From Candidatus Wolfebacteria bacterium RIFOXYB1_FULL_54_12 (GTDB taxonomy: Bacteria; Patescibacteriota; Minisyncoccia; UBA6257; UBA9933), in NCBI GenBank assembly GCA_001793895.1, contig MGIT01000001.1, forward strand, positions 106,508 through 170,507: 64,000 bases of DNA, read 5' to 3'. Positions 19,171 to 51,494 of this stretch are shown here, piece by piece. How positions within the stretch are numbered: the first letter of the stretch is position 1; each line of letters opens with the position of its first letter. A program made the translations under genes and the position numbers. The notes beneath the pieces were generated by a model that saw only the letters and a list, made by a program, of their open reading frames with translations, had not been told where the DNA came from and searched no databases.

Positions 19171-19228
19171 GCCTGCTCAAAAAATAACTATACACTAAGT
19201 ATATCCGACAACGCCCAACAAAACAAAA

Positions 19229-19260
19229 ACCATGCATTAAAATGCATGGTTTTTGTTTTT
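19229..19260. terminator. Intrinsic terminator hairpin (copy 1 of a duplicated terminator)
   Basis: ACCATGCATTaaAATGCATGGTttttgttttt. A near-identical copy lies at 21898-21930. Confidence 0.6.
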
Positions 19261-19408
19261 GTGGTGTTTGTTTGAAAAAGTCAGAACCCATTTTGAGAAA
19301 GATCCCTAACCGCTCCGCTCGGGGTGCGGCGGAAAAAGAAAAAAAAAATTAGGGAGGCGGGAAGAATCCCGCGCCGTCCGAGTTAAAAAATTGGCACTGG
19401 GCGAATTT

Positions 19409-21829
19409 CTAATAAGTCGAATAGGCGTAGTCAAACACGGCATGAGCTACTGTCTCTAAACTTTTAGCACTACATTTATCGAGCGTATCGCCAGTCGTAT
19501 GATATGGCGGGTATTCAAAATCAATCAACAGGAAACTCGGAATTCCAGCTCGATTGAGCGGGGTGTGATCATCTTGGACACTTTGCCCAACCTTATCTTG
19601 AAAAACGTGGCTGTCCACTTTTTGCGCAATACTCCAAAATGCGTCCGCTTGAGACTGGGCATTTTGCACGGATGATTGCTCCTTGTAAATTCTCAAGTCT
19701 TTATCGCACACCATATCAAGAACAAGTGCGGATACCGGTATATTATTCCCATAAAGTTCGCTCAAATGTTCGGAAAAATAAGTAGAACCGAGAGGTCTCC
19801 AATTGCTATAATCACTGCCTTGATTTATATCTCCCTCTTCTCCATCAAAGAAAACGATGTCCACGCCAACACTCGGTATCACATGAGAATTGCCGAGTAT
19901 CCGCGCTAATTCCACAAGGACGGCAACACCCGAAGCAGAGTCGTTGCCCCCTGGCACTGGTTGATCTTTGTATACGTGATCCTTATCCGCAAGTTTTTTA
20001 CTGTCATAATGTGTCGCTAAAATAATGCGCCGTTCTTGGGTTGGGTATAGACGGCCTATGATATTCGATAATTTATGGATTTTACCGTCTGTCCCTTTGT
20101 AATCCCACGATTGTGTAATTACTTCGTTGGTTTGTTCTTTCATCTCCGCAATTAGAAATTTCTGCACGTTTTCATGCCCGGGTGCGCTCATGTGGCGCGG
20201 CCCATACCTTAGTTGTTGGTTTATCACGGCAAGCATTTCGTTGCCATCAATAAACGGTTTTTCCTTAAAAGTACGCCGGAGAACTTCGGACGTTAAGTAC
20301 TCAACCGGAGAAAAATTGTCGGTGAGAATTGGGTATGGAGACAAATTAAATCTGTCCAAGTTGATAACTTTATTTCGAAGCGAGCTAATGATTGAGTTCT
20401 CATTTTGCAGAATTGAAGCCGCGCTCAAATCAATTTTTTTATTACCATTCCATCCAACCAAAATAATATTTTGGGAATCTGTTTTTCCGGGAGTTTCAAC
20501 CGCAAAAAAATAACTATTTGGAAAAACACTTTGAAAAGTTTTTATCTCCGCAAAAATAAGAGATGGCTCTTGTCTTGATAAATCTCCGATTAAATTAGCG
20601 ATAAACAATCCATCGTCAGATAATTTCTCTTTTGCGATGGTAAAAAATTCCTGCGTTGTAAAGTGAGCAGGAATGGAAAAAAGAGAATGGTACGCATCGC
20701 TAAATATAAAATCATATTTTTTATTCGAATCCCAAAGCAGGCGACGACCATCTTCAGTATAATTGTATAGATTTGAATTGTCTTCTACGGCAAAATATTC
20801 TTTTGCTAATGCCAATAACGATGGTTCAATTTCTGAAACATCGAGTGTCGCGTTTGGCAACTCCGCTAAAAGGGCCTTCGGTATAGAATATGCGCCACCG
20901 CCTATAACTAAAGCATTTCGTACGTCCGGCTTGAAAACTTTGTAGAGAGAATAGTATTTCGTGTATTCATAAACGAGATCGGCCGGGTTATCCGAATCGA
21001 GAAACATCGCACCGGAACCACTCCGATCCTGTTGAAAAAATCTTGTCGGCCTGCTTTCAAACATACCATCGTAGATGGTGATTTTTTCGTAAATACCATC
21101 TTTGCTGTACAATACATCGCCTTTTGTTTGCTGAACCGCAACAATGGTAATAAGGGCTAAAGTGACAACGGCAACCAAAGACTGGGTTAGGCGTTTTTTG
21201 TCAAAACCAAATACCGTAAGTGGGATAAATCCGAGAAGGAAGAGAACAACTCCTGTGGCAATAAAAATATGGTCTATGCCAAAATTAGGTATAAGCACAA
21301 AACCCGCAAGTAGACTGCCAATGATACTCCCCAGAGTAGACCAAAAAAATATTTTACCCGAAACACTTCCCACTCCCTGCTCTGGTGCTTGAAGACTCTG
21401 TAATTTTATAGCATAGGGCGACAAAGTGCCGAGCAATAACGCAGGAACAAGGAACAGCAGCAAAGAAGAGATCAGTGGTCCGCTTGTAAGTGAAAGATTT
21501 TTGCTTAAAATTGGAAGAATTATCAAACCAAAAAAATGAAATACAAGGACAAGAAGACCGCTTACGAGAATTATCCCGAAGAACCACCGTAACGATGGGT
21601 GACGATCTGCAAATTTTCCGCCCACATAATATCCTATGCTAAGAGCTGCGAGTATAACACTTATTATACTTGATACAGTAAAAATTGTGTTTCCATAGTG
21701 AGGCGAAAGGACACGGACGGCAACGACTTCAATAATCAAAACACACGCCCCAGTGATAAATACTGAGATTGGCAGCAAATTTTGCTTTAAAAATTTGTTC
21801 ATGTATTTAATCATGGTAGCAGTTTGCAT
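19409..21829 (-). CDS. Fusion protein of three parts: a polytopic membrane domain, a spermidine-synthase-like (PABS-fold) domain and an M28-family peptidase domain
   Basis: About 200 aa of N-terminal TM helices. The PABS-like core (LVIGGGAYSIPKALL...DAYHSLFSIPAHFTTQEFF...DDGLFIANL). C-terminal M28 motifs (HYDS...GGNDSASGVAVLVELARIL...DIVFFDGEEG). Confidence 0.55.
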   Translation of the reverse strand: MQTATMIKYMNKFLKQNLLPISVFITGACVLIIEVVAVRVLSPHYGNTIFTVSSIISVILAALSIGYYVGGKFADRHPSLRWFFGIILVSGLLVLVFHFFGLIILPILSKNLSLTSGPLISSLLLFLVPALLLGTLSPYAIKLQSLQAPEQGVGSVSGKIFFWSTLGSIIGSLLAGFVLIPNFGIDHIFIATGVVLFLLGFIPLTVFGFDKKRLTQSLVAVVTLALITIVAVQQTKGDVLYSKDGIYEKITIYDGMFESRPTRFFQQDRSGSGAMFLDSDNPADLVYEYTKYYSLYKVFKPDVRNALVIGGGAYSIPKALLAELPNATLDVSEIEPSLLALAKEYFAVEDNSNLYNYTEDGRRLLWDSNKKYDFIFSDAYHSLFSIPAHFTTQEFFTIAKEKLSDDGLFIANLIGDLSRQEPSLIFAEIKTFQSVFPNSYFFAVETPGKTDSQNIILVGWNGNKKIDLSAASILQNENSIISSLRNKVINLDRFNLSPYPILTDNFSPVEYLTSEVLRRTFKEKPFIDGNEMLAVINQQLRYGPRHMSAPGHENVQKFLIAEMKEQTNEVITQSWDYKGTDGKIHKLSNIIGRLYPTQERRIILATHYDSKKLADKDHVYKDQPVPGGNDSASGVAVLVELARILGNSHVIPSVGVDIVFFDGEEGDINQGSDYSNWRPLGSTYFSEHLSELYGNNIPVSALVLDMVCDKDLRIYKEQSSVQNAQSQADAFWSIAQKVDSHVFQDKVGQSVQDDHTPLNRAGIPSFLLIDFEYPPYHTTGDTLDKCSAKSLETVAHAVFDYAYSTY

Positions 21830-21897
21830 ATGATTAGTCTATCCGCCATTGTATTTTTTAAGCGAGGACTATTTTCAAAATATTTCACAAAAACAAA

Positions 21898-21930
21898 GAC
21901 CACGCATTTTAATGCATGGTTTTTGTTTTT
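21898..21930. terminator. Intrinsic terminator hairpin (copy 2), abutting the tRNA-Ala 3' end
   Basis: ACCACGCATTttAATGCATGGTttttgtttttgtgg. Confidence 0.55.
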
Positions 21931-21931
21931 G

Positions 21932-22002
21932 TGGACCTAGGCGGAATCGGACCGCCGTCTCAGCAATGCGAATGCCGTGTTCTACCACTAGACTATAGGC
22001 CC
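21932..22002 (-). tRNA. tRNA-Ala (anticodon CGC)
   Basis: Reverse complement GGGCCTATAGTCTAGTGGTAGAACACGGCATTCGCATTGCTGAGACGGCGGTCCGATTCCGCCTAGGTCCA. A G3:U70 identity pair, A73, anticodon loop TTCGCAT. One D-stem mismatch and C55 in the T-loop lower confidence. Confidence 0.65.
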
Positions 22003-26665: not shown

Positions 26666-27760
26666 TCAACGCATAACCCCACCTCCGATGACAACTCCAT
26701 CGGCATCGTAAAATACGGCAGATTGTCCCACGGCAACAAACCGTTGCGGTTCATCGAATTGCAACCGATAGGCCTCACCATCGGCGACCAATGTCGCCGC
26801 AAACAACGGCTGGCGATAGCGGATGCGCACCATGACCGGAATGGACTTCGGGGGGGCTATGGCGCACATGCCCATGAAATTAAGTTCAACAAGGCCAATA
26901 TCCGCACATGCCTGCTCAAGCAAATGATCATCATGCGAAACCGTGATGACATTGCTTGCGACATCTTTTTTGACCACAAAATACGCCGGTCCGCCCCCGA
27001 CATGCAATCCGTGCCGTTGCCCGATGGTATAAAACCACACACCCTCGTGCTCGCCCACCTTCACTCCGTCGACGGTAACAATGTCGCCCTTCCGTTTCGG
27101 CAGATACTGTTCCAAAAATTCACGCAACGATATCTTCCCCAAAAAACAAATACCTTGGGAATCTTTTTTCTGCGCCGTCGGAAGTCCCGCGGCCGCCGCA
27201 ATCTCCCTGATCTTCGGCTTTTCATAGGCACCGATCGGAAACAAACAATGCCGCAGTTGCTCCTGCGTAAGCGTCCACAAAAAATAACTCTGATCTTTAT
27301 TCCCATCAATCCCTTTCTGTAATGAGTAAGTAGTTTCCTGTTTTTTGTTATCGGTTATAGGTTGTAGGTTATAGGTTGCGCTTCGCGCATAATGCCCCGT
27401 CGCCACATAATCAGCCCCCAACGCAAGCGCCTTTTGCAAAAACACGCCAAACTTGATTTCCTTGTTGCACATCACATCCGGGTTCGGGGTAATGCCGTTG
27501 CGATACCCGTTGACCAAATATTCCACCACGAATTGTTTGTATTCTTCTTCAAGATCGATGACATAAAACGGGATGCCCAAATGTTCGGCAACGCGCCGCG
27601 CATCTTCCGCTTCGCGGTCTTGGCATCCGTCCATGTTATATCCTTTAATGAACGCGCCGATCACATCATAAGTCCCCTGCTCGCGCAACAAAAAAGCGGC
27701 GACACTCGAATCGACGCCGCCCGACATCATGACAAATACTTTTGGCTTTAAACCATTCAT
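26666..27760 (-). CDS. mnmA: tRNA-specific 2-thiouridylase MnmA, with an in-frame tandem-repeat insertion
   Basis: PP-loop SGGVDSS. ATGHYAR. KDQSYFLW. An inserted ATYNLQPITDNKKQ segment is encoded by the (GGTTAT)-type repeat at 27346-27379. Confidence 0.85.
   Translation of the reverse strand: MNGLKPKVFVMMSGGVDSSVAAFLLREQGTYDVIGAFIKGYNMDGCQDREAEDARRVAEHLGIPFYVIDLEEEYKQFVVEYLVNGYRNGITPNPDVMCNKEIKFGVFLQKALALGADYVATGHYARSATYNLQPITDNKKQETTYSLQKGIDGNKDQSYFLWTLTQEQLRHCLFPIGAYEKPKIREIAAAAGLPTAQKKDSQGICFLGKISLREFLEQYLPKRKGDIVTVDGVKVGEHEGVWFYTIGQRHGLHVGGGPAYFVVKKDVASNVITVSHDDHLLEQACADIGLVELNFMGMCAIAPPKSIPVMVRIRYRQPLFAATLVADGEAYRLQFDEPQRFVAVGQSAVFYDADGVVIGGGVMR
27346..27379. repeat. (GGTTAT/GGTTGT)n-type tandem repeat inside the mnmA coding sequence
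   Basis: Sequence ttgttatcggttataggttgtaggttataggttgcg. Confidence 0.8.
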
Positions 27761-31029: not shown

Positions 31030-31117
31030 TTCCGTTATCCGTTATCGGTCATCCGTTTTCGTTTTCGGTTATAGGTTATTAGTTGTAGGTTTTAGGTTAT
31101 TGGTTATCAGTCATTGG
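31030..31117. repeat. Tandem (CCGTTAT)/(GGTTAT)n repeat array abutting the stop codon of 31118..32461
   Basis: Sequence ccgttatccgttatcggtcatccgttttcgttttcggttataggttattagttgtaggttttaggttattggttatcagtcattggttattc. Confidence 0.8.
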
Positions 31118-32461
31118 TTATTCTATCGGCAAATTCTCCGGAGGCTCGCCTTTCTTTGCCTCGATACGGCGCATACTCGGCGCGGTAACCAACGATGACG
31201 GAACATGGTAAAGCGTAGCCAACTCTTCTATGGAAAAGACGGGAGCCTTCTTTATCATGATCCGCTGGCGGTATGCAAAGAACATTGCCCTCTTTTTCAA
31301 AAATTCCTGATGCTTTTTCCACGCCGGAAACAGCCATGCCTTGAAACCTTTCGGCGGGTTTACCGACGTATCCCTGTTTGGCTTGAACGAATTGATATGC
31401 TGGGAACCGAATTGCTTGAATGAGCCGATGATCCCCCCTATATAGGACTTATGAAACGTTTCCTGCCGATCGATAAACACTGCACGCACGCTCACTTCAT
31501 AGCACAGTTTGGATATTTTTCCTTCAATGCCTTCAAGTACTTCCTTTTCAGAAAAGCTCAAAGACGCAATCGTCTTGGGTGGAGCGTCGGATTTTTTCGG
31601 CGGCTCGGGCCATTCCGGAGTGCTTATGAATACAAGAAAAAAATTCTTGATCCACATGACAAGATGATCAAATATGCTCAATTTAGGAGCGACCTTCACC
31701 TCACGGCCTAACATTTTATCGACGATCGCCTGTCCCTTCTTTTTGTAGTCGCTCGTTTTTTCGCCGGTCGGCTTGGATATATATTGCACGAAGATCATTT
31801 CATTCTCGCGGAGCTTCGACATGGTTTCCAAAATGACCGTAAGCGGATCAAGTCGTTGCTCTTCCTCTTTCTCTTCAAAATAGGCGTATGTCTTAATCGG
31901 ATATGCGCTGTCTTTGTCGAGAACCATATCGACGCCCCATACATCATAAACATCGTTGGGCAACATCATCGGCAAGAAGCTGAGATAGTCTTCGACAAGG
32001 GCTATTTCCGCGGCGGGATATTGCGCAAACAATGCGGACTCCACCAAATTGCGGTGCTCGGCAGGTACGCGCACATAAAAATATACACCGCCGCTTCGCC
32101 CGACCATTTCAAACGAAAGGGCGTTTTGAACCTTCCCTTTGATATTTTCATCCCACCATTTGATCTCGCCGGCATAGGTGCCATGTACCGTGGCAAACAC
32201 CTGTTCCATGGATTTCGGACTGCGCAAATTTTCCTTGGGGATGCGCAATTCAAGCACGACCCACTTTTGCGCCTTCTTTGCCGCTTTTTTGTTCGAGTCG
32301 ATGTACAGGTCCCAAAGATAGAACGCCAAAACAACCGGAACGACGGCCCACCATACGTACGAAAAGACCTCGCCAATGCTTTGCGCAATGCCAAGGATGA
32401 TATTCTGCACGACCGGTGTGATCGAAAAATAGTCCAGTAGAAAGTCTGAAATGTTTGCCAT
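31118..32461 (-). CDS. Hypothetical membrane protein (N-terminal TM pair plus a large soluble domain), co-directional and adjacent to the TraD/VirD4-like ATPase
   Basis: 447 aa. TM region VVQNIILGIAQSIGEVFSYVWWAVVPVVLAFYLW. No recognisable motifs. Confidence 0.4.
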   Translation of the reverse strand: MANISDFLLDYFSITPVVQNIILGIAQSIGEVFSYVWWAVVPVVLAFYLWDLYIDSNKKAAKKAQKWVVLELRIPKENLRSPKSMEQVFATVHGTYAGEIKWWDENIKGKVQNALSFEMVGRSGGVYFYVRVPAEHRNLVESALFAQYPAAEIALVEDYLSFLPMMLPNDVYDVWGVDMVLDKDSAYPIKTYAYFEEKEEEQRLDPLTVILETMSKLRENEMIFVQYISKPTGEKTSDYKKKGQAIVDKMLGREVKVAPKLSIFDHLVMWIKNFFLVFISTPEWPEPPKKSDAPPKTIASLSFSEKEVLEGIEGKISKLCYEVSVRAVFIDRQETFHKSYIGGIIGSFKQFGSQHINSFKPNRDTSVNPPKGFKAWLFPAWKKHQEFLKKRAMFFAYRQRIMIKKAPVFSIEELATLYHVPSSLVTAPSMRRIEAKKGEPPENLPIE

Positions 32462-32519
32462 GTATCTCTTTTAGTATATCGCAAAATGGTCCAACAAAAA
32501 AGAGACACTCGTCTCTTTT

Positions 32520-32578
32520 TTGCATTCCGTTATCCGTTATCCGTTTTCGGTTATTGGTTATTGGTTATCCGTTATTTA
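32520..32578. repeat. Tandem (CCGTTAT)/(GGTTAT)n repeat array abutting the stop codon of 32576..33619
   Basis: Sequence ccgttatccgttatccgttttcggttattggttattggttatccgttatttacg. Confidence 0.8.
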
Positions 32579-33619
32579 CGCAACATGATATGTTCCGTTG
32601 TCCAATCGTTTGAAATATTTTTTGTTCTGCAAGTTAAGCAGAATGGTGTTTTCCTTCAAGAATCGCTGAGAGGAAACCAACTGCACGACCTCATGCTGGG
32701 CAAGCGGGCCATTGTCAACAAGCACCTGCTTGATGACGTCCTTTGCCGTACCCGGGAAAAATCCATGCTCGGTCAAACCATACATACCGCGACCTACAAG
32801 GACAAATCGTCCATCCTTGATCAATTCATTATGGATCGTCTGTGCATACACCGGCTTTTTATCGAACCCGACCGAATTGATCGTAGTGGCGATATCGCGG
32901 AAGTGCATCGGCTTGCCATGCTTGCGCAAGATAAGATATGCCTTTGCGCGCGCGGTCTTCGGCGTGATCTCTTCCCAATGGGAAAGACCAAAGTCGGAAT
33001 ACGGATTCACGGAAAACTGTTTCGAGATGCCGAGGTAGTTCATGCCGACGGCGCGGTCGACGTTCGAAGCGGTCGCAACCTGCTTGAAGTGCGGATCGAA
33101 TTGACCCTTGAAGACTATTTCTTCTTTCTTGCCGCCAAAGAACTTGACCGCCTTTTCAATGAAAGTCTCTGCCTTTTTGACGACAGCCTTGTCCGAAGCC
33201 CAAAACCCATAGGAATGATCGCTTTCAGCATGGTACATCGGCTCGCCGGCAATGCGGAAAAGGAAGCGGAACTGATACTTGTTCACGGTCGCATCTTTCA
33301 ACACCGTGCGCATGTCTTCGACAAAATCATCTTCCTTGCGAACGCCGCCCAAGGCAACGAGTTGCTCCTTGGCGATTTGCACCAGGCGATCGCCGCCTGC
33401 ATCGCTAAAACGTTCCCGCGCCAAACGAAGCCCTTCTGCCTCTATCTGGCGCACGCGCTCACGGGTAATGCCGTTGCGTTCGCCGAGTTCCTGCAGGGTC
33501 TTTTCCTGTCCATCGCGAAGTCCAAAACGTTCCTCGACTATTTCTCGCTGTCGAGCGGACAATGCGTGCGTTACCTGTTCGATGATATTGCCTGTGTTCT
33601 TCATAAGAGTTGAATCCAA
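32576..33619 (-). CDS. Sigma-70 region-4-like HTH domain protein fused to a C-terminal domain of unknown function
   Basis: The N-terminus LSARQREIVEERFGL...KTLQELGERNGITRERVRQIEAEGLRLAR is a region-4 HTH. The remaining about 270 aa are unassigned (possible winged-helix/HARE-HTH-like end). Confidence 0.45.
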   Translation of the reverse strand: MDSTLMKNTGNIIEQVTHALSARQREIVEERFGLRDGQEKTLQELGERNGITRERVRQIEAEGLRLARERFSDAGGDRLVQIAKEQLVALGGVRKEDDFVEDMRTVLKDATVNKYQFRFLFRIAGEPMYHAESDHSYGFWASDKAVVKKAETFIEKAVKFFGGKKEEIVFKGQFDPHFKQVATASNVDRAVGMNYLGISKQFSVNPYSDFGLSHWEEITPKTARAKAYLILRKHGKPMHFRDIATTINSVGFDKKPVYAQTIHNELIKDGRFVLVGRGMYGLTEHGFFPGTAKDVIKQVLVDNGPLAQHEVVQLVSSQRFLKENTILLNLQNKKYFKRLDNGTYHVA

Positions 33620-45319: not shown

Positions 45320-45505
45320 TTCAATTTGTCATTCCGAGCCTGCTGTCATCCTGAACTCGTTTCAGGATCTCGCGTACAAACAGTGAGCTTCTGAAATAAA
45401 TTCAGAATGACACTTTAAAAAATATTGTCATTCCCGTCCGCCCACCAGCAGAGGAATCCAGTACCCCGCATTGTCATTCCCGCGAAAGCGGGAATCTAGT
45501 ACACT
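45320..45505. repeat. Cluster of palindromic hairpin repeats, including an exact GTCATCCTGAACTCGTTTCAGGATC unit
   Basis: The same 25-mer also occurs at 563-587 and 47833-47857. Confidence 0.8.
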
Positions 45506-45513
45506 AAAAAAGG

Positions 45514-46236
45514 ATGTACCAAATAAACACCGCACAATTCACCGGCCCCATAGAAACACTGCTCGAAATGATCGAGGCGCGCAAATTGGAGATCACACAA
45601 GTGAGTCTTGCTTTGGTGACCGATGATTTTCTTAAATTCGTACAGGAAATGAATCTGTCGGGCAAGGAGCGCAACGAAGCGGAAATTCGGTTTCTTTCGG
45701 ACTTTGTCGCAATCGCATCGCGCCTATTATTGATCAAATCAAAAGCACTTCTTCCCTCGCTTGAATTATCGACTGAAGATCAGGAAGATATCAAAGATCT
45801 CGAACATCGCTTGAAGTTCTACCAACAATTCAAACCTGCCATGGTACATGTAAAAACGCTCTATGAACAAGAATCGGTGGCGGTCGCGCGTCCGCTTTTG
45901 CTCGGCCGGCCGACCATTTTCTACCCATCACCCGAAATAACACCGTCAACAATGCACGCGGCGATGGCAACCCTATTCGAAACCCTTAAAGCCGCGGCAC
46001 TTGAGTTCAAAAAGGTTGAGAACACGGTAGTAAGGCTCGAAGAAAAGATCGAGGAAATACTCATGAAGGTTACTGCGGGCATAAAAAGCTTCGGCAACCT
46101 GATCAATGAAAAATCAAAGAAGGAGGTCGTGGTCCTCTTTCTTGCGCTGCTTCACCTGCTACGCGACCAACATATTCACGTGGAACAACCCGACCGCTTC
46201 GGCGACATCGCCATCAAAAAATCCCCCCACGAATGA
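45514..46236 (+). CDS. scpA: Segregation and condensation protein A
   Basis: N-terminal FTGPIETLLEMIEARKLEITQVSLALVTDDFLKFV is the canonical ScpA. 240 aa. Confidence 0.85.
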   Translation: MYQINTAQFTGPIETLLEMIEARKLEITQVSLALVTDDFLKFVQEMNLSGKERNEAEIRFLSDFVAIASRLLLIKSKALLPSLELSTEDQEDIKDLEHRLKFYQQFKPAMVHVKTLYEQESVAVARPLLLGRPTIFYPSPEITPSTMHAAMATLFETLKAAALEFKKVENTVVRLEEKIEEILMKVTAGIKSFGNLINEKSKKEVVVLFLALLHLLRDQHIHVEQPDRFGDIAIKKSPHE

Positions 46237-46244
46237 TGCGGATA

Positions 46245-46292
46245 AAAAACGCTTAATAATATTGCTATAGCAATATTATTAAGCGTTTTTTA
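46245..46292. terminator. Perfect-palindrome intrinsic terminator after scpA
   Basis: Sequence aaaaaacgcttaataatattgctatagcaatattattaagcgtttttt. Confidence 0.65.
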
Positions 46293-46341
46293 TTTCAGAA
46301 TTTCTCTGACTCTTGTCGCAGTCATCCATGTCACCGCCCTT

Positions 46342-46393
46342 ATACCCTTTGGTGATAGAATATATCCACGATCAGGCGGTTATCGGGTTTCAT
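46342..46393. repeat. Left direct repeat, a duplicate of the last 17 codons and stop of the SDR gene
   Basis: 49/52 nt identical to 47041-47092. Confidence 0.85.
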
Positions 46394-46394
46394 A

Positions 46395-47030
46395 TTACAT
46401 CGGTATTAGTTTAGCGCCCTCACTTTGTATCTTCTTATATATTCTTTCTATTCCATCAATATGTCTCACCCCTCTTTCATTATTACCCGCTTGCGCTTCA
46501 TGAATATTTTTTATCCAATCTTTTAACATTAGGATGCCTCCTTGCTTAATCAACTCATAAAGATCCTTTGGTTTCACCATAATTACAAGAGACTCTCCTA
46601 ATTTATTAATTCCACTCTCATACTCATCAACTTCTTTATCAGAAAATTTATTCGACGCCAGCGCCATATAAATACCATCACTTTCATTAGATAACCCGAA
46701 GAAATGGACTAAGGAATTTCTAAGATGCCAAAGACGTTCACTGCTTAATTTATGCCACCGTGTATTTTTAACATATTCCACATTTTGGCCTATTAAACAA
46801 AATGTACGGAGCCAAGAAGTAAACCGCTTGCTTTGTGTTTCGCATTTTCCATCATATTCATACCAGTAACTTGCAAGAATATCTAACAAGCTAAAAACAA
46901 TTATCGCTTGAATTCTAGGAGAAGAAGGATAATCACATAAAAAAATACTGTTGATATCTCTTATCACATCGTTAATGAAATCAACCACCTCCTTCTTCCG
47001 CTCATTATGCTTTTCAATCATTTGAACCAA
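46395..47030 (-). CDS. Hypothetical protein encoded by an AT-rich inserted cassette; possible HEPN-like (R-x4-H) motif
   Basis: 211 aa, Lys/Asn/Ile/Tyr-rich, GC far below the surroundings. RNSLVH motif. Sits exactly between two 52-bp direct repeats. Confidence 0.5.
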   Translation of the reverse strand: MVQMIEKHNERKKEVVDFINDVIRDINSIFLCDYPSSPRIQAIIVFSLLDILASYWYEYDGKCETQSKRFTSWLRTFCLIGQNVEYVKNTRWHKLSSERLWHLRNSLVHFFGLSNESDGIYMALASNKFSDKEVDEYESGINKLGESLVIMVKPKDLYELIKQGGILMLKDWIKNIHEAQAGNNERGVRHIDGIERIYKKIQSEGAKLIPM

Positions 47031-47038
47031 ATATAATA

Positions 47039-47770
47039 TTATACCCTTTGATGATAGAATGTATCCACGATTAGGCGGTTATCGGGTTTCATTTCTCCGA
47101 TGACCGTCTTGTAAATGACCTCCGCGACATCTGCGGGCGTATGGTGCGCCTCTGTGCCTTTGAACAGTTCTTTGAACATGTTCGTCCCTACTGACCCGGG
47201 GGTAATGGTGATCACATCGATCCCCGACTGCACCAGCTCGGCCGACAACGCCTGCGTAAACGCGATCACGCCGGCCTTGGTCGCCGAATAGACGGCAAGC
47301 TCGGGAATGCCACAGAGTCCCGCTCCCGATGAAATATTAATGATGCATTTTCGTTTCACGGTACAACCGTCATGATCGGTTTCCGCAACGCCGGTATCCA
47401 TGCTCTTCAAAGCCTCCTGCGTAACAATAAACATGCCGCCCAGGTTCACATTGACCATGCTTTGCCACTCGGCTTCCGTCGTATCCGCAAATCGCTTGCG
47501 CTGGGCAACGCCCGCATTGTTGATAAGCACATCGATGCCGCCAAAACGCTTCTTCGCTTCCGCAATGGCAAGGGCGACCTGCGCCCGATCGCACACATCC
47601 CCTTCTATGACCAATGTGCGATCAATAGGAAGCGTCATCGCTTCCGAGCTTGTCGCACCATGGGAATAAATGACAACATTCGCACCTTCGGCAATGAACT
47701 TTTTCGCGGTTTCCAATCCGATGCCCGTCGCCCCACCGGTAATGAATACTGTCTTTCCTTTGATATCCAT
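47039..47770 (-). CDS. Short-chain dehydrogenase/reductase (SDR) family oxidoreductase
   Basis: TGGATGIG Rossmann motif, NNAG, catalytic YxxxK (YSATKAG). Start MDIKGKTVFITGG at 47770. Confidence 0.8.
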   Translation of the reverse strand: MDIKGKTVFITGGATGIGLETAKKFIAEGANVVIYSHGATSSEAMTLPIDRTLVIEGDVCDRAQVALAIAEAKKRFGGIDVLINNAGVAQRKRFADTTEAEWQSMVNVNLGGMFIVTQEALKSMDTGVAETDHDGCTVKRKCIINISSGAGLCGIPELAVYSATKAGVIAFTQALSAELVQSGIDVITITPGSVGTNMFKELFKGTEAHHTPADVAEVIYKTVIGEMKPDNRLIVDTFYHQRV

Positions 47771-47794
47771 AATGGTATTAGTATAGCATAACTT

Positions 47795-47920
47795 TTTGTC
47801 ATTCCGGCGGAGGCCGGAATGACAACATAAGAAGTTTGTCATCCTGAACTCGTTTCAGGATCTCATGGTAGTGCGATGAGATTCCGGCCTCCGCCGGAAT
47901 GACAAATGCGCGGTTCTATT
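47795..47920. repeat. Palindromic hairpin repeat cluster
   Basis: Sequence gtcattccggcggaggccggaatgac ... gtcatcctgaactcgtttcaggatc ... gattccggcctccgccggaatgac. Confidence 0.8.
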
Positions 47921-48014
47921 AATAGAACCGCGCATTCACCACCCTCCCACAAAAACAAAGAATCCGCTCGTCCATCAAATGGCGGACGAACAGATCCGGT
48001 AGAATTTCGCATCC

Positions 48015-48050
48015 CTGTTATTAGTTATAGGTTGCTGGTTGTTAGCCTGA
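48015..48050. repeat. (GGTTAT)-type tandem repeat 3' of rplK
   Basis: Sequence cctgttattagttataggttgctggttgttagcc. Confidence 0.65.
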
Positions 48051-48087
48051 AGTCAAATAAAAAACGCCTATGGCGTTTTTTATTTGA
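48051..48087. terminator. Intrinsic terminator hairpin downstream of rplK
   Basis: Sequence gtcaaataaaaaacgcctatggcgttttttatttgac. Confidence 0.65.
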
Positions 48088-48502
48088 CTTCGATTCCCAT
48101 CGATCGGGCTGCGCCCTTGATGATCTTTGCGGCCTGCTCGACGTCTTCAGTGTTAAGATCCACCATTTTCTTTTCGGCGATCTCACGCACCTGCGCCTCG
48201 GTAACGGTTCCCACCTTGATCTTCAGCGGATTCGCCGATCCCTTGGCGACGCCTGCCGCTTTGCGCAACAGATCGGATGCCGGGGAGGTCTTCAGCTTGA
48301 AGTCGAAGGTTCGATCTTCATAGATGTTGATCTCTGCGGGAATGATGCTTCCGACCATATCTTTGGTCGCTTCGTTGAACTGCTGGCAGAACTGCGCGAT
48401 ATTCACGCCGTGCTGACCCAATGCCGGACCAATCGGAGGAGCAGGGTTTGCCGCGCCACCCGGGATCTGAAGCTTAATGATAGTTTTGATTGCTTTTGCC
48501 AT
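48080..48502 (-). CDS. rplK: 50S ribosomal protein L11
   Basis: [35 protein letters not shown] is canonical L11. Confidence 0.9.
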
Positions 48503-48609
48503 ACTGTATATGAATTATGAATACTAAATAATGGATTATGGTAAGGAATATGTCAAGAATCTCATCTGCATTCATTCATTATTCATGATTCATGCTTCTT
48601 GATTCACGC

Positions 48610-49206
48610 TTATATTTTTTGCAACTGCAACGAGTCCAACTCGACCGCAGTCTCTCGCCCGAAGATCGGCACAAGTACCTTGATCTTTGCGTGCTCCTGA
48701 TCGATATCGGATATCTTTCCTTCGTAGTCTTTGAACGGTCCGTCGGTGATCTTTACGATATCGCCAACGACATAATCCAAGGTAATTTTCTTCTCGCCAC
48801 CTTCCATGCGGGCGAGCAGAAAATCAACCTCTTCCTTCGACAACGGCGTCGGCTCGGTAGAATCCGATCCGACAAAACCGGTAACGCGCGGCGTATTGCG
48901 CACGACATACCATGAGTCTTCGCCCATGATCATGTCAACAAGCACATACCCGGGATAGATCTTTTCCTCGACTTCCTTGCGCTTTCCGTTCTTGATCTTG
49001 ATGCTCTTTTCCTTGGGAACGACGACGTTAAAGATCTTGTCATCCATTTCCAAAGAATCGACGCGCTGTTTCAAATAGCGCGCGACGGCATCTTCGTAGC
49101 CGGAATAGGTGTGCACGGCATACCAATGCCGCTCCCCTTTTTGGGAAAGTTCCTTTTTCTTCTCGGCCTTCTTTTCCGAAGTCGGTTGTGATGTTGTTTC
49201 AGTCAT
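48610..49206 (-). CDS. nusG: Transcription termination/antitermination protein NusG
   Basis: NGN domain (WYAVHTYSGYE) and C-terminal KOW (GDIVKITDGPFKDYEGKI). Confidence 0.9.
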   Translation of the reverse strand: MTETTSQPTSEKKAEKKKELSQKGERHWYAVHTYSGYEDAVARYLKQRVDSLEMDDKIFNVVVPKEKSIKIKNGKRKEVEEKIYPGYVLVDMIMGEDSWYVVRNTPRVTGFVGSDSTEPTPLSKEEVDFLLARMEGGEKKITLDYVVGDIVKITDGPFKDYEGKISDIDQEHAKIKVLVPIFGRETAVELDSLQLQKI

Positions 49207-49243
49207 GAATAATGTGCATTAATGCGCCACGCGCAATTCTTTG

Positions 49244-49465
49244 TTATATGAAGTACTGGACAAGCGCATAATTAAATACCATGTCCAATACACCCAAAAA
49301 GACGGCGAATATGAGCGAAAGTCCAATAACCATGCCGGTTAATCGAATGGTCTCCTGCCGGGTTGGCCAATTGACCCGCTTGAATTCGAGCTGCGACTCC
49401 TGAAAATACGAGGTAAGACGTGAAAACATAAGAATATAATAAGTTAGACAGTAATTACCATACAC
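49244..49465 (-). CDS. secE: Preprotein translocase subunit SecE
   Basis: EFKRVNWPTRQE followed by one TM. Canonical position upstream of nusG. Confidence 0.8.
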   Translation of the reverse strand: MYGNYCLTYYILMFSRLTSYFQESQLEFKRVNWPTRQETIRLTGMVIGLSLIFAVFLGVLDMVFNYALVQYFI

Positions 49466-49490
49466 TAAACCTTGAGAAAATGCAAGCCAT

Positions 49491-51494
49491 TTAAGTTATA
49501 TCCAAGTTGCGCACCAATGTTGCATTTGACTGGATGAACTGCTTGCGTGGCGCGACTTCGTCGCCCATCAATATCTCAAACAATCGATCGGCTTCCTGAG
49601 CGTCATCGATCTCAACCTGAAGCAACGTACGGAACTCCGGATTCATAGTCGTTTCCCAAAGCTGGTCGGGGTTCATTTCACCAAGACCCTTATAGCGCTG
49701 CACATTTACGTTCGACTCGCTCTTTTTACCGGCGGTCATTTCCGAAACGGCCTTGTCTTTTTGCTCGGGCGTGTACACATAGCGCACATCCTTACCAAGC
49801 TGGAGGCGGAACAATGGCGGCTGTGCAATGTACAAGAAACCTCCATCGATCACCGGGCGGAAGAAACGATAGAACAAGGTCAATAACAATGTTCGAATGT
49901 GCGCTCCATCAGTATCGGCGTCGGTCATGATGACAACTTTATGGTACCGCAACTTCTCGATATCAAAGCTATCGGAAATGGCAGTGCCGAGCGCAATGAC
50001 CAATGACTTGATTTCGTTATTGACAAGCATCTTGTCGAGCCGCGCGCGCTCGACGTTCAAGATCTTTCCCTTAAGCGGAAGAATGGCCTGGAACCGGCGA
50101 TCACGACCCTGCTTGGCCGAGCCTCCGGCAGAATCGCCTTCGACTATGTACAGCTCGGAATCAGCAGCTTTGCGACTGGAACAATCGGCAAGCTTCCCCG
50201 GCAGAGTCATACCCTCGAGCATGCCTTTGCGCAACACGGTATCCTTTGCGGCTTTTGCGGCCTTACGGGCCTTTTGGGCCAAGATACATTTTTCGATGAT
50301 CGCTTTGCCATCACCCGAATATTTTTCAAAGTATTCCTTTAGCGCTTCAGAGAGCACGGACTCCACTGCTCCGCGCGCTGCCGGCGTTCCTAAGCGGGCC
50401 TTGGTCTGCCCCTCGAATTGCGGATCGCGCAGCTTCACGGAGATGATCGCCGTAATACCCTCGCGCACATCATCGCCGGTCAAGTTATCTTCCGTTCCTT
50501 TTAATGCATTTATGTTGCGCGCGAATTCATTCAACGCGCGCGTCAGGGCCGTGCGAAAACCGGTCACATGCATACCGCCATCCGATGTATAGATATTGTT
50601 TGCAAAACTCAACTCACGAGCATCAGGGTCGTCGTTATAAATAAATGCCGCCTCAACATCAATACTCTCGTAACTTTTATGCGCATAGAAAGTCTCCTTG
50701 TGCACTGGGGTATGATTGCGATTTACATAACGGACGAACGAAATAAGTCCCCCTTCAAAATAGAAGGAGTAATAGAATGGAAGATCCTCTCGATCATCAA
50801 CGATCTCGATGCGGATCCCTTTGGTCAAAAACGCCTGTTGGCGCAAATGGCTTACGATTTCTTTGCGGTCGAATTCGAGCGTGGAGAAAATGGACCCGTC
50901 CGGCTTAAATAAGACCTTTGTTCCGTTGGCCGTGCACTTACCCGCTTTCTTTACATCGTATTGCGGTTTGCCGATCTTATATTCCTGCACATACATCGTG
51001 CCTTCTTTGCACACTTCGATCTTCATCCATGTCGAAAGTGCGTTTACGACCGAAAGGCCCACGCCGTGCAGACCGCCGGAAACCTTGTACGAATCGCCGT
51101 CAAACTTACCGCCGGCATGTAATGTAGTAGCCGCGGTTTCGAGTGCGGATTTTTTTGTCTTCGGGTGAATGTCTACGGGGATACCGCGCCCATCGTCGGC
51201 AACCGTAACCGTGCCGTCTTTCAACAGCTCTACCTTAATGCTCTTGGCATACCCAGCCATGGCTTCATCGAGCGAGTTGTCAAACACCTCCCAGATCAAA
51301 TGATGCAATCCCTGTTCGCCGGTCGAACCGATATACATACCGGGGCGCTTGCGCACCGGCTCCAATCCTTCGAGTACCTGAATATCCTTCGCGCTATACG
51401 AAGCATTCCCCCTGTTGTCGGTCGGTTCGTCCAACTTTTTGGCAGCCGCTTTCCGAGGCTTTTCTTCTTCTATGTTTTCTGCTTTTTTCGCCAT
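49491..51494 (-). CDS. gyrB: DNA gyrase subunit B
   Basis: GHKL ATPase (GLHHLIWEVFDNSLDE...DDGRGIPVD). Toprim (EGDSAGG). C-terminal domain. 667 aa. Confidence 0.85.
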   Translation of the reverse strand: MAKKAENIEEEKPRKAAAKKLDEPTDNRGNASYSAKDIQVLEGLEPVRKRPGMYIGSTGEQGLHHLIWEVFDNSLDEAMAGYAKSIKVELLKDGTVTVADDGRGIPVDIHPKTKKSALETAATTLHAGGKFDGDSYKVSGGLHGVGLSVVNALSTWMKIEVCKEGTMYVQEYKIGKPQYDVKKAGKCTANGTKVLFKPDGSIFSTLEFDRKEIVSHLRQQAFLTKGIRIEIVDDREDLPFYYSFYFEGGLISFVRYVNRNHTPVHKETFYAHKSYESIDVEAAFIYNDDPDARELSFANNIYTSDGGMHVTGFRTALTRALNEFARNINALKGTEDNLTGDDVREGITAIISVKLRDPQFEGQTKARLGTPAARGAVESVLSEALKEYFEKYSGDGKAIIEKCILAQKARKAAKAAKDTVLRKGMLEGMTLPGKLADCSSRKAADSELYIVEGDSAGGSAKQGRDRRFQAILPLKGKILNVERARLDKMLVNNEIKSLVIALGTAISDSFDIEKLRYHKVVIMTDADTDGAHIRTLLLTLFYRFFRPVIDGGFLYIAQPPLFRLQLGKDVRYVYTPEQKDKAVSEMTAGKKSESNVNVQRYKGLGEMNPDQLWETTMNPEFRTLLQVEIDDAQEADRLFEILMGDEVAPRKQFIQSNATLVRNLDIT

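What the first reader, a model, noticed from the sequence alone, without database searches (positions are those of the whole stretch)
46342..47092. AT-rich single-gene cassette flanked by 52-bp direct repeats that duplicate the 3' end of the adjacent SDR gene
46342-46393 and 47041-47092 are direct repeats, 49/52 identical. The right copy is the real last 17 codons plus stop of the SDR oxidoreductase (...MKPDNRLIVDTFYHQRV*). The left copy is a slightly diverged duplicate of the same coding segment, sitting after the scpA terminator. Between them lie 645 bp of strongly AT-rich DNA, far below the roughly 50-55% GC of the neighbourhood. It encodes exactly one ORF (46395..47030, 211 aa) that fills the interval.

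This is the classic signature of site-specific integration into a gene's 3' end with target duplication, but there is no integrase in cis. The cargo protein has no obvious family and carries an R-x4-H (RNSLVH) motif of the kind found in HEPN RNases. A toxin or abortive-infection-type function is therefore a reasonable guess. It is a good candidate for a novel, trans-mobilised defence or addiction cassette.
Basis: partly seen in the sequence, partly recalled or inferred. Interest (0 to 1): 0.8.

Follow-up and report, generated by a model that had tools for sequence, protein, structure and literature searches.

The report
Foreign HEPN-like gene inserted after SDR
A 645-bp AT-rich piece of foreign DNA carrying one gene for an uncharacterised, probably HEPN-type (RNase toxin or abortive-infection-like) protein sits just after a dehydrogenase gene in a Wolfebacteria genome, bounded by a 54-bp duplication of that gene's end; a sister species has the clean empty site, and how the gene got in is unresolved.

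Summary
The repeats at 46340-46393 and 47039-47092 are 54 nt long and 51/54 identical. The 645 bp between them are 33.8% GC, against 49.6% for the window, and hold one ORF (208-211 aa).

A sister Wolfebacteria species (L014/L067) has the exact empty site: the SDR stop codon is followed directly by the scpA terminator. The difference is exactly 699 bp, so this is a true insertion with target duplication.

Evidence for a trans-mobilised cassette is weak:
- There is only one insertion site, and it is filled in every informative contig that carries this strain's scpA.
- I found no other copy of the repeat, no attC-like fold and no terminal inverted repeats; the cassette holds no recombinase gene.
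- One mosaic contig (L007) may show transfer by homologous recombination, or may be an assembly chimera.

Verdict: a horizontally acquired single-gene island encoding a new HEPN-like family. The insertion mechanism is unresolved. Interest is moderate.

The parts
47039..47092 (-). Proximal repeat copy: the functional last 17 codons plus stop (MKPDNRLIVDTFYHQRV*) of the SDR gene
   Evidence: The repeat boundary coincides with the last base of the stop codon.
46340..46393 (-). Distal repeat copy: displaced duplicate of the SDR 3' end (encodes MKPDNRLIVDIFYHQRV*), 51/54 identical. It lies directly against the sequence that follows the SDR stop codon in the empty site.
46394..47038 (.). Inserted foreign DNA, 645 bp, 33.8% GC; absent from sister species L014/L067
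46395..47030 (-). Cargo ORF, 211 aa from TTG (208 aa from the ATG at 47021 = P0001, 'hypothetical protein A2333_00460', Candidatus Wolfebacteria RIFOXYB2_FULL_49_7). Uncharacterised family, predicted HEPN-like all-alpha fold.
46704..46721 (-). R104-N-S-L-V-H109 (R-x4-H) motif. R and H are nearly invariant across the family.
47038..47067 (-). Promoter-like site (TGGATA-N18-TATAAT, 10/12). The -35 and TATAA lie in the SDR 3' end and the final T is the first inserted base. The empty site reads TATAAG. This is a consensus match only.
47039..47770 (-). SDR oxidoreductase gene (243 aa from MDIKGK), the target gene, left intact by the duplication
46242..46293 (.). Perfect palindrome with 26-nt arms: a bidirectional terminator shared by the convergent scpA gene and the SDR-cargo unit
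45514..46236 (+). scpA, the conserved right-hand neighbour of the insertion site

Best explanation
This is a horizontally acquired single-gene island.

Shown: 645 bp of low-GC foreign DNA entered the chromosome of this Wolfebacteria lineage immediately after the stop codon of the SDR gene. The site is the convergent SDR/scpA intergenic spacer, which varies among Wolfebacteria: no extra gene in L014, one here, four in L015. The event duplicated the last 54 bp of SDR, so SDR stayed intact and a decaying pseudo-copy was pushed downstream.

Inferred: the gene is read from the SDR transcript or from a junction promoter, and it uses the scpA terminator.

Its product belongs to an unannotated family of about 200 aa. 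The fold is all-alpha, most similar to HEPN-domain toxins and Abi proteins, and carries a nearly invariant R-x4-H. I infer a HEPN-type RNase acting as a stand-alone, trigger-activated abortive-infection or toxin-like defence protein, in the manner of AbiV or AbiD/F.

The repeats are a footprint of the insertion, not proof of an active mobile element. The most economical routes are (a) recombination anchored in the SDR 3' end with an illegitimate joint 54 bp upstream of the recipient's stop codon, as in homology-facilitated illegitimate recombination or 'C-terminal displacement', and (b) a Campbell-type single crossover of a circular molecule carrying the 54-bp segment. The data do not decide between these.
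For: - Empty site in sister species.
- Exact 699-bp difference.
- GC 33.8% against 49.6%, and GC3 0.30 against 0.55-0.62.
- Variable spacer content (L015/L068 hold four other genes and no repeats).
- Both repeat copies share AAA/CCC/CGC where L014 has AAG/CCG/CGT, and each copy has at least one private change. This fits duplication of the lineage's own sequence followed by drift.
- The repeat ends exactly at the stop codon. That is expected if homology with incoming DNA ended with the coding sequence.
- Family of about 123 clusters, with no Pfam, NCBIfam or PADLOC hit.
- AlphaFold model pLDDT 95.8, pTM 0.91.
- R104/H109 at least 90% conserved in 65 sequences and invariant in 24 distant ones.
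- Sub-threshold Pfam hits to HEPN_Cthe2314 (3 members) and HEPN pEK499_p136 (1 member) are the only recurring families besides SEC-C.
- Defence-like or variable contexts of homologues: next to an RM system, Bro-N and two Fic genes; 60 nt after a relB gene; in a tRNA-adjacent islet.
- HFIR and C-terminal displacement leaving orphaned 3' ends are documented: PMC5361080.
Against: - I could not superpose the model to check that R104/H109 overlie the catalytic residues.
- There is no PADLOC hit and no experimental data. Some HEPN domains are not nucleases.
- No partner (antitoxin or sensor) gene lies in the cassette, whereas several homologues abut an upstream gene. Those upstream genes are unrelated to each other.
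- No microhomology is evident at the junctions, and the donor is unsampled: the closest homologue is 45-46% identical.
- The HFIR route needs a donor that already had the gene right after an SDR orthologue, so two events rather than one.
Confidence: 0.55

Rival explanations
1. This is a miniature att-flanked integrative cassette (CIME-like). The two 54-bp repeats are attL and attR. A tyrosine or serine recombinase encoded elsewhere excises the 699-bp circle and reinserts it into the SDR 3' end, with the element's own copy restoring the gene, as phage 21 and e14 do at icd.
For: - Direct repeats duplicate a gene's 3' end, which is the classic integration signature (PMC3603311).
- Integrase-less elements that retain attL and attR are a recognised class, the CIMEs (PMC6323972).
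- The ORF fits the interval to within 1 nt on one side and 8-17 nt on the other.
- A clean empty site exists.
- A second low-GC single-gene island in the window has the same layout: 45-nt repeats at 19220 and 21890, next to tRNA-Ala.
- Mosaic contig L007 carries the cassette in a sister-species background.
Against: - No recombinase lies in or next to the cassette.
- Only one insertion site is known, and it is filled in every informative contig that carries this strain's scpA.
- No other copy of the repeat occurs in the window.
- A metagenome scan for the site returned only SDR genes, either empty or with unrelated downstream genes.
- The repeat has no inverted-repeat core and no secondary structure (z about 0).
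- Both copies carry the host lineage's own substitutions.
- Other family members are not flanked by comparable repeats, apart from a 42-nt promoter-like pair in L012.
- The two islands in the window do not share a repeat sequence.
Confidence: 0.15
2. The cassette was already present in the common ancestor. The 'empty' site in L014/L067 results from precise deletion by recombination between the two 54-bp repeats.
For: - A 54-bp direct repeat can support RecA-mediated deletion that regenerates exactly the observed empty site (inference).
- L007 may show that the L014-type lineage can carry the cassette.
Against: - The more distant L015/L068 also lacks the gene and has a single SDR 3' end.
- The unameliorated 34% GC argues for recent arrival.
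- This idea changes only the timing. An insertion with duplication is still needed.
Confidence: 0.1
3. The cargo is not a nuclease or defence protein. It is a helical protein with another role (for example regulatory or ligand-binding), and the R-x4-H and the HEPN-like bundle reflect convergence or a non-catalytic HEPN domain.
For: - Foldseek found no hit.
- No curated HEPN family reaches threshold.
- Non-catalytic HEPN domains exist, for example in sacsin and in the substrate-binding subunits of nucleotidyltransferases (established knowledge).
Against: - The near-invariance of both R and H across very divergent members (18-46% identity) is typical of catalytic residues.
- Distribution is patchy and contexts are islet or defence-like.
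Confidence: 0.25

Closest known systems
HEPN-domain abortive-infection proteins and toxins (AbiV; AbiD/F, Abi_2; HepT of HepT-MntA)
   Same: - All-alpha bundle whose best structural matches are these proteins.
- Conserved R-N-x-x-x-H motif.
- Small single-domain protein, patchy distribution, low-GC islet.
- Single-gene organisation, like AbiV and AbiD/F.
   Different: - No sequence-profile membership in any Pfam HEPN family.
- About 211 aa, with an inserted beta-hairpin/helix segment (residues about 115-152) and two long C-terminal helices beyond the minimal HEPN core.
- No MNT, antitoxin or other fixed partner.
- A subset has an N-terminal SEC-C zinc motif.
- Activity is untested.
Rugutis (Lactococcus plasmid single-gene Abi-like system, pUCCL633_059, 359 aa)
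   Same: - Single-gene system with an N-terminal SEC-C motif followed by a confidently predicted domain that had no significant PDB match. It is activated by phage large terminase (PMC11381338, PMC12184496, PMC13064643).
- About 19 of 65 members of the cargo family also start with SEC-C.
   Different: - Rugutis is about 100 aa longer than the SEC-C-bearing members here.
- The window protein itself has no SEC-C motif.
- I could not obtain the Rugutis sequence, so homology is untested. tblastn of family members against PLSDB plasmids gave only SEC-C motif hits.
- This is a lead, not a finding.
Prophage or element integration into a gene's 3' end with a replacement copy (phage 21/e14 at icd), and integrase-less CIMEs
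   Same: Direct repeats that duplicate the 3' end of a protein-coding gene and leave the ORF length unchanged (PMC3603311). CIMEs keep attL and attR but have lost their integration genes (PMC6323972).
   Different: - The cargo is a single 0.64-kb gene that fits the interval almost exactly, not a decayed multi-gene element.
- No recombinase, no sign of a shared att site elsewhere and no excision evidence.
Homology-facilitated illegitimate recombination, or 'C-terminal displacement' (rhs, CDI and T6SS effector-immunity arrays)
   Same: Incoming DNA is anchored by homology in a conserved upstream gene, and new DNA is added downstream, displacing the resident 3' segment, which persists as an orphan (PMC5361080). 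This predicts a repeat that ends at the stop codon and a resident copy that decays.
   Different: - Here the displaced piece is only 54 bp and the gene is a housekeeping-type SDR, not a polymorphic toxin.
- The donor arrangement is unknown.
- Competence and HFIR have not been studied in Wolfebacteria.

Membership tests
HEPN superfamily | Four-helix up-down bundle core structurally similar to known HEPN domains | tested here: met
HEPN superfamily | Conserved R-x4-6-H motif | tested here: met
   R104-NSLV-H109. R and H are at least 90% conserved in 65 sequences, invariant in 7 close sequences and invariant in 24 distant sequences.
HEPN superfamily | Motif residues placed at the canonical active-site position or dimer interface | not testable with these tools
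HEPN superfamily | Match to a curated HEPN sequence family at threshold | tested here: not met
   Only sub-threshold hits: HEPN_Cthe2314 in 3 members (best E = 0.006) and pEK499_p136 in 1 member. No hit for the window protein itself.
HEPN superfamily | Metal-independent RNase activity | not testable with these tools
   Needs biochemistry.
Known anti-phage defence systems (PADLOC-DB v2) | Profile match to a listed defence protein | tested here: not met
   0 families at E up to 10.
Rugutis | Sequence or structural homology to pUCCL633_059 | not tested
Rugutis | N-terminal SEC-C motif | tested here: not met
   Absent from the window protein. Present in 18-19 of 65 family members.
Integrative element, including CIME | attL/attR direct repeats flanking the element, and an empty site with one copy | tested here: met
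Integrative element, including CIME | Cognate recombinase, in cis or demonstrably in trans | tested here: not met
   None in the cassette or in the roughly 8 kb around it. The rest of the genome was not scanned.
Integrative element, including CIME | Evidence of mobility: several sites, presence/absence within a population, or circular form | tested here: inconclusive
   There is a single site. Every contig that carries this strain's exact scpA and extends past it has the gene (8 shown, 10 similar not shown; the 2 short ones end at scpA). Mosaic contig L007 is either a recombinant or a chimera.
Integron gene cassette | attC site, an imperfect palindrome that folds as single-stranded DNA | tested here: not met
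   The repeat folds no better than shuffled sequence on either strand (z 0.0-0.8).
IS or transposon | Terminal inverted repeats, a transposase and a short target-site duplication | tested here: not met
   No inverted repeats at the insert ends. The single ORF is not a transposase. A 54-bp duplication is far longer than usual target-site duplications.
Diversity-generating retroelement (template and variable repeats at a gene's 3' end) | Nearby reverse transcriptase and adenine-specific differences between repeats | tested here: not met
   No reverse transcriptase gene. The three differences are G/A, T/C and C/T on the coding strand, so they are not confined to adenines of one copy.
Type II toxin-antitoxin pair | Adjacent small antitoxin gene | tested here: not met
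   No other ORF of 34 aa or more inside the cassette and no Rfam RNA. One homologue (L062) follows a relB gene.

The most novel reading that the evidence does not exclude
Wolfebacteria (and perhaps other CPR bacteria) may have an integrase-independent, or trans-acting, way of inserting single promoterless genes right behind the 3' end of a resident transcription unit, duplicating about 45-54 bp of that end. The SDR cassette and the tRNA-Ala-adjacent 806-aa gene island (19220-21934) would be two products. The 54-bp repeats would then allow excision as a circle and re-entry by short-homology recombination, moving a new HEPN-type defence gene between species, as contig L007 would show if it is real.
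Probability: 0.1. Interest if true: 0.75.

Novelty: new member of a known kind. Interest (0 to 1): 0.4.

Why it matters
CPR bacteria have tiny genomes and few recognised defence systems or mobile elements, so each documented gene gain is informative.

This locus gives a base-pair-resolved filled/empty pair for acquisition of a likely defence or toxin gene in Wolfebacteria.

It also defines an unannotated protein family (about 120 clusters at 50% identity, some fused to SEC-C) that is a good candidate for a new HEPN clade. The family may be linked to the experimentally validated but structurally unassigned Rugutis system. If that link holds, it would supply a mechanistic hypothesis (HEPN RNase) for Rugutis.

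The repeat architecture, seen twice in 64 kb, is worth a systematic survey. By itself it does not show a new mobility mechanism.

Tried and rejected
- Assembly artefact: rejected. The same structure appears on at least 20 contigs from several samples and assemblers.
- Chance repeat: rejected.
- DGR template/variable repeats: rejected. No reverse transcriptase and no adenine-specific pattern.
- Integron attC: rejected.
- IS or transposon: rejected. No terminal inverted repeats and no transposase.
- Decayed prophage or ICE remnant: unlikely, because one intact ORF fits the interval almost to the base.
- Homing-endonuclease-type mobility driven by the cargo: no resemblance to any homing-nuclease family, and HEPN domains cut RNA. 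Not pursued further.
- Phage origin: no relative in IMG/VR. BFVD gave only two weak hits to uncharacterised proteins.
- Plasmid origin: no tblastn hit in PLSDB.
- NQO1 match of the family profile (E = 0.004): the family's arginine aligns to Q in NQO1 and the fold is unrelated. Treated as spurious.
- A common partner gene: the upstream neighbours of four homologues do not align.
- Repeats around other family members: none convincing, apart from a 42-nt promoter-like pair in L012.
- Within-population empty site: not found.
- Searches that failed outright: the afdb50 fold library was unavailable; alignment A2 was too divergent for a locus scan; a short SEC-C query found nothing; the Rugutis paper has no held supplement.
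- The 64-kb window was not scanned systematically for recombinase genes.

Full report
**1. The observation**

The window holds a 54-nt direct repeat at 46340-46393 and 47039-47092, with 51 of 54 bases identical. There is no third copy at up to 3 mismatches, and none is expected by chance.

The right copy is the true end of a short-chain dehydrogenase (SDR) gene on the minus strand (47039..47770; adh_short E = 7e-51). The repeat stops exactly at the last base of its TAA stop codon. The left copy lies against a perfect palindromic terminator with 26-nt arms (46242-46293), which closes the convergent scpA gene at 45514..46236.

The 645 bp between the copies are 33.8% GC, against 49.6% for the window. 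This is the lowest-GC stretch of that size in the 64 kb. GC3 is 0.30, against 0.62 for SDR and 0.55 for scpA.

A single ORF fills the interval (46395..47030). Its stop codon is 1 nt from the left repeat. Its start is 8 nt (TTG) or 17 nt (ATG) from the SDR stop codon. Nothing else of 34 aa or more, and no Rfam RNA, lies inside the insert.

**2. It is an insertion**

The protein is identical to 'hypothetical protein A2333_00460' of Candidatus Wolfebacteria RIFOXYB2_FULL_49_7. It occurs on at least 24 contigs, always in the order gyrB-secE-nusG-rplK-SDR-cargo-scpA.

A scan of species-representative genomes with the SDR protein found two syntenic relatives:
- **L014 (RIFOXYD12_FULL_48_21; SDR 94% identical).** The SDR stop codon is followed directly by the sequence that follows the left repeat in the window, and then by the scpA terminator. 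The window differs by exactly 645 + 54 = 699 bp. An 893-kb metagenome contig (L067) shows the same empty site.
- **L015/L068 (SDR 81% identical).** The spacer instead holds four unrelated genes: an unassigned 159-aa gene (no Pfam hit), a PNPOx-like gene, an unknown, and a periplasmic binding protein. There are no flanking repeats.

**3. What the repeats say**

Both copies share three bases (AAA, CCC, CGC) where L014 has AAG, CCG, CGT. They differ from each other at three transitions:
- CTG in the distal copy, as in L014 and L015, against CTA in the proximal copy.
- ATA in the distal copy against ACA in the proximal copy (L015 has ACG).
- CAC in the distal copy against CAT in the proximal copy.

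So the duplicated DNA is this lineage's own, or that of a very close relative. Each copy has changed since the duplication, and the only non-synonymous change is in the non-functional distal copy.

The repeat has no secondary structure (z about 0) and no inverted-repeat core. The insert has no terminal inverted repeats.

The junction creates a TATAAT box 18 nt after a TGGATA that lies inside the SDR end (10/12 match). The empty site reads TATAAG. This is only a consensus match.

**4. Mobility**

Every contig that carries this strain's exact ScpA and extends past it also carries the gene (8 of the 10 shown; 10 more similar contigs not shown; the two short ones end at scpA). I therefore saw no presence/absence polymorphism within the species.

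The only hint of movement is contig L007:
- It is identical to the L014-type species, including that species' gyrB intein, down to window position 47291.
- From 47231 through the cassette to the contig end at 46281 it is identical to the window, with 0 mismatches in about 1 kb.

This is either a real inter-species recombinant with a crossover inside SDR, or an assembly chimera that switched across 59 shared bases and broke at the palindrome. I cannot tell which without the reads.

No recombinase lies in or near the cassette. A metagenome scan for the site found only L067 and L068.

**5. The protein**

There is no hit in Pfam, NCBIfam or PADLOC, and only one weak PHROG hit.

An exhaustive HMMER search found 123 cluster representatives at E up to 0.001. 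The nearest is 46% identical. R104 and H109 (LRNSLVHF) are invariant among close relatives, at least 90% conserved in 65 sequences, and invariant in a distant subgroup of 24.

The single-sequence AlphaFold model was poor (pLDDT 46). With the 65-sequence alignment the model has pLDDT 95.8 and pTM 0.91. It is all-alpha with one small beta-hairpin region.

Structure and profile searches gave the following:
- Foldseek against the PDB found nothing.
- Across the family, the only recurring Pfam signals are an N-terminal SEC-C motif (18-19 of 65 members) and sub-threshold HEPN families.
- Sequence profiles find no solved relative.

I read this as a new, divergent HEPN-like family. Confidence is moderate, because I could not inspect the superposition.

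**6. Contexts of relatives**

Homologues lie in unrelated neighbourhoods:
- After the tRNA-Thr/Tyr/Thr, rpmG and tRNA-Trp cluster, behind an unknown 179-aa gene (L011).
- 60 nt after a relB antitoxin gene (L062).
- Beside an AcrVA2-like gene (L059).
- Next to an RM system, Bro-N, NUDIX and two Fic genes (L069).

The abutting upstream genes are not related to each other. No relatives were found in IMG/VR or PLSDB. This is the pattern of an accessory, defence-type gene, but it is circumstantial.

**7. Literature leads**

Rugutis is a Lactococcus single-gene Abi-like system. It has an N-terminal SEC-C motif and a confidently modelled domain with no PDB match, and it is triggered by the phage large terminase (PMC11381338, PMC12184496, PMC13064643). 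It resembles the SEC-C-bearing members of this family in architecture. I could not get its sequence, so homology is untested.

For the repeats, two known routes give the same anatomy:
- Integration into a gene's 3' end with a replacement copy, as at icd (PMC3603311), including integrase-less CIMEs (PMC6323972).
- Homology-facilitated illegitimate recombination, or C-terminal displacement, which leaves orphaned 3' ends (PMC5361080).

**8. Verdict**

- Foreign insertion with target duplication: supported.
- HEPN-like protein: moderately supported.
- An actively trans-mobilised cassette: not supported by the available evidence.
- Toxicity and defence: inference only.

Most likely this is a horizontally acquired single-gene islet encoding a new HEPN-like family member, with the repeats as a footprint of the recombination that installed it.

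A second low-GC single-gene island with 45-nt flanking repeats next to tRNA-Ala in the same window keeps open, at low probability, a more general insertion mechanism in these bacteria.

Noticed in passing
window 19220-21934: A second low-GC (37-44%) single-gene island with the same layout. A 45-nt direct repeat (41/45 identical, a terminator-like hairpin) lies at 19220-19264 and 21890-21934. The second copy abuts the 3' end of tRNA-Ala(cgc) at 21931-22002 on the minus strand. Between the copies is one co-oriented 806-aa gene (MFS-like membrane region, spermidine-synthase-like domain and peptidase M28). The gene is present on every contig that carries this strain's TyrRS and extends far enough to show it. 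No related genome was available to look for an empty site.
   Followed up: partly
L007 (ANAN16-1 scaffold_371), corresponding to window 46281-50117: A mosaic contig. It is of the sister-species (L014) type from gyrB to window position 47291, then identical to the window from 47231 through the cassette to the contig end inside the terminator palindrome. It is either a real recombinant carrying the cassette into another species or an assembly chimera.
   Followed up: partly
window about 50118 (gyrB, 49491..51494 minus strand) versus L067/L007: The sister species carries an insertion of about 1.3 kb in gyrB. It is annotated Intein_splicing in L007, where GyrB is 1099 aa. The window's GyrB is 667 aa and lacks it. 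This is an intein presence/absence difference between closely related Wolfebacteria.
   Followed up: no
window 1444, 1678, 15464, 16110, 29020, 45465, 47790, 51532 and others; also 557, 30851, 45342, 47835: Families of short palindromic intergenic repeats (TGTCATTCCCGCGGAGGCGGGAATC, at least 8 copies, and TGTCATCCTGAACTCGTTTCAGGATCT, 4 copies), REP-like in appearance. Copies flank the scpA-cargo-SDR block at 45342-45500 and 47790-47905, where a 26-nt perfect inverted pair sits just upstream of SDR.
   Followed up: no
window 7971-8030, 27307-27401, 31042-31129, 32517-32590: Degenerate tandem arrays of a 7-nt unit (GGTTATN: GGTTATAGGTTATTGGTTAT...) in several intergenic regions. A similar tract (ttattagttataggttgctggttgttag) lies at 48019-48046, between SDR and rplK.
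   Followed up: no
L012 189-230 and 1094-1135: The homologue P0006 (313-972) is bracketed by a 42-nt direct repeat, 86% identical, ending in TTTACTTGACA (resembling a -35 box). This could be a duplicated promoter or another insertion footprint. The contig is only 2.9 kb.
   Followed up: no
L069 1-9431: A distant family member (P0141, 260 aa) sits in a defence-island-like stretch: HsdR-like helicase, Bro-N protein, fused N6-methylase/specificity protein, small unknowns, NUDIX and two Fic proteins.
   Followed up: no
L064 797-1603: The gene overlapping the start of homologue P0129 encodes a 268-aa protein ending in ...IIRDYRNFIHPV. This R-N-x-x-H-like motif might mark another nuclease-type domain. 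It has no Pfam hit.
   Followed up: no
window 46340-46393, minus strand: The distal repeat copy starts with ATG, 1 nt after the cargo stop codon (ATG TAA T ATG AAA...). It therefore forms an intact 17-codon mini-ORF that could be translationally coupled to the cargo gene. This is probably incidental.
   Followed up: no
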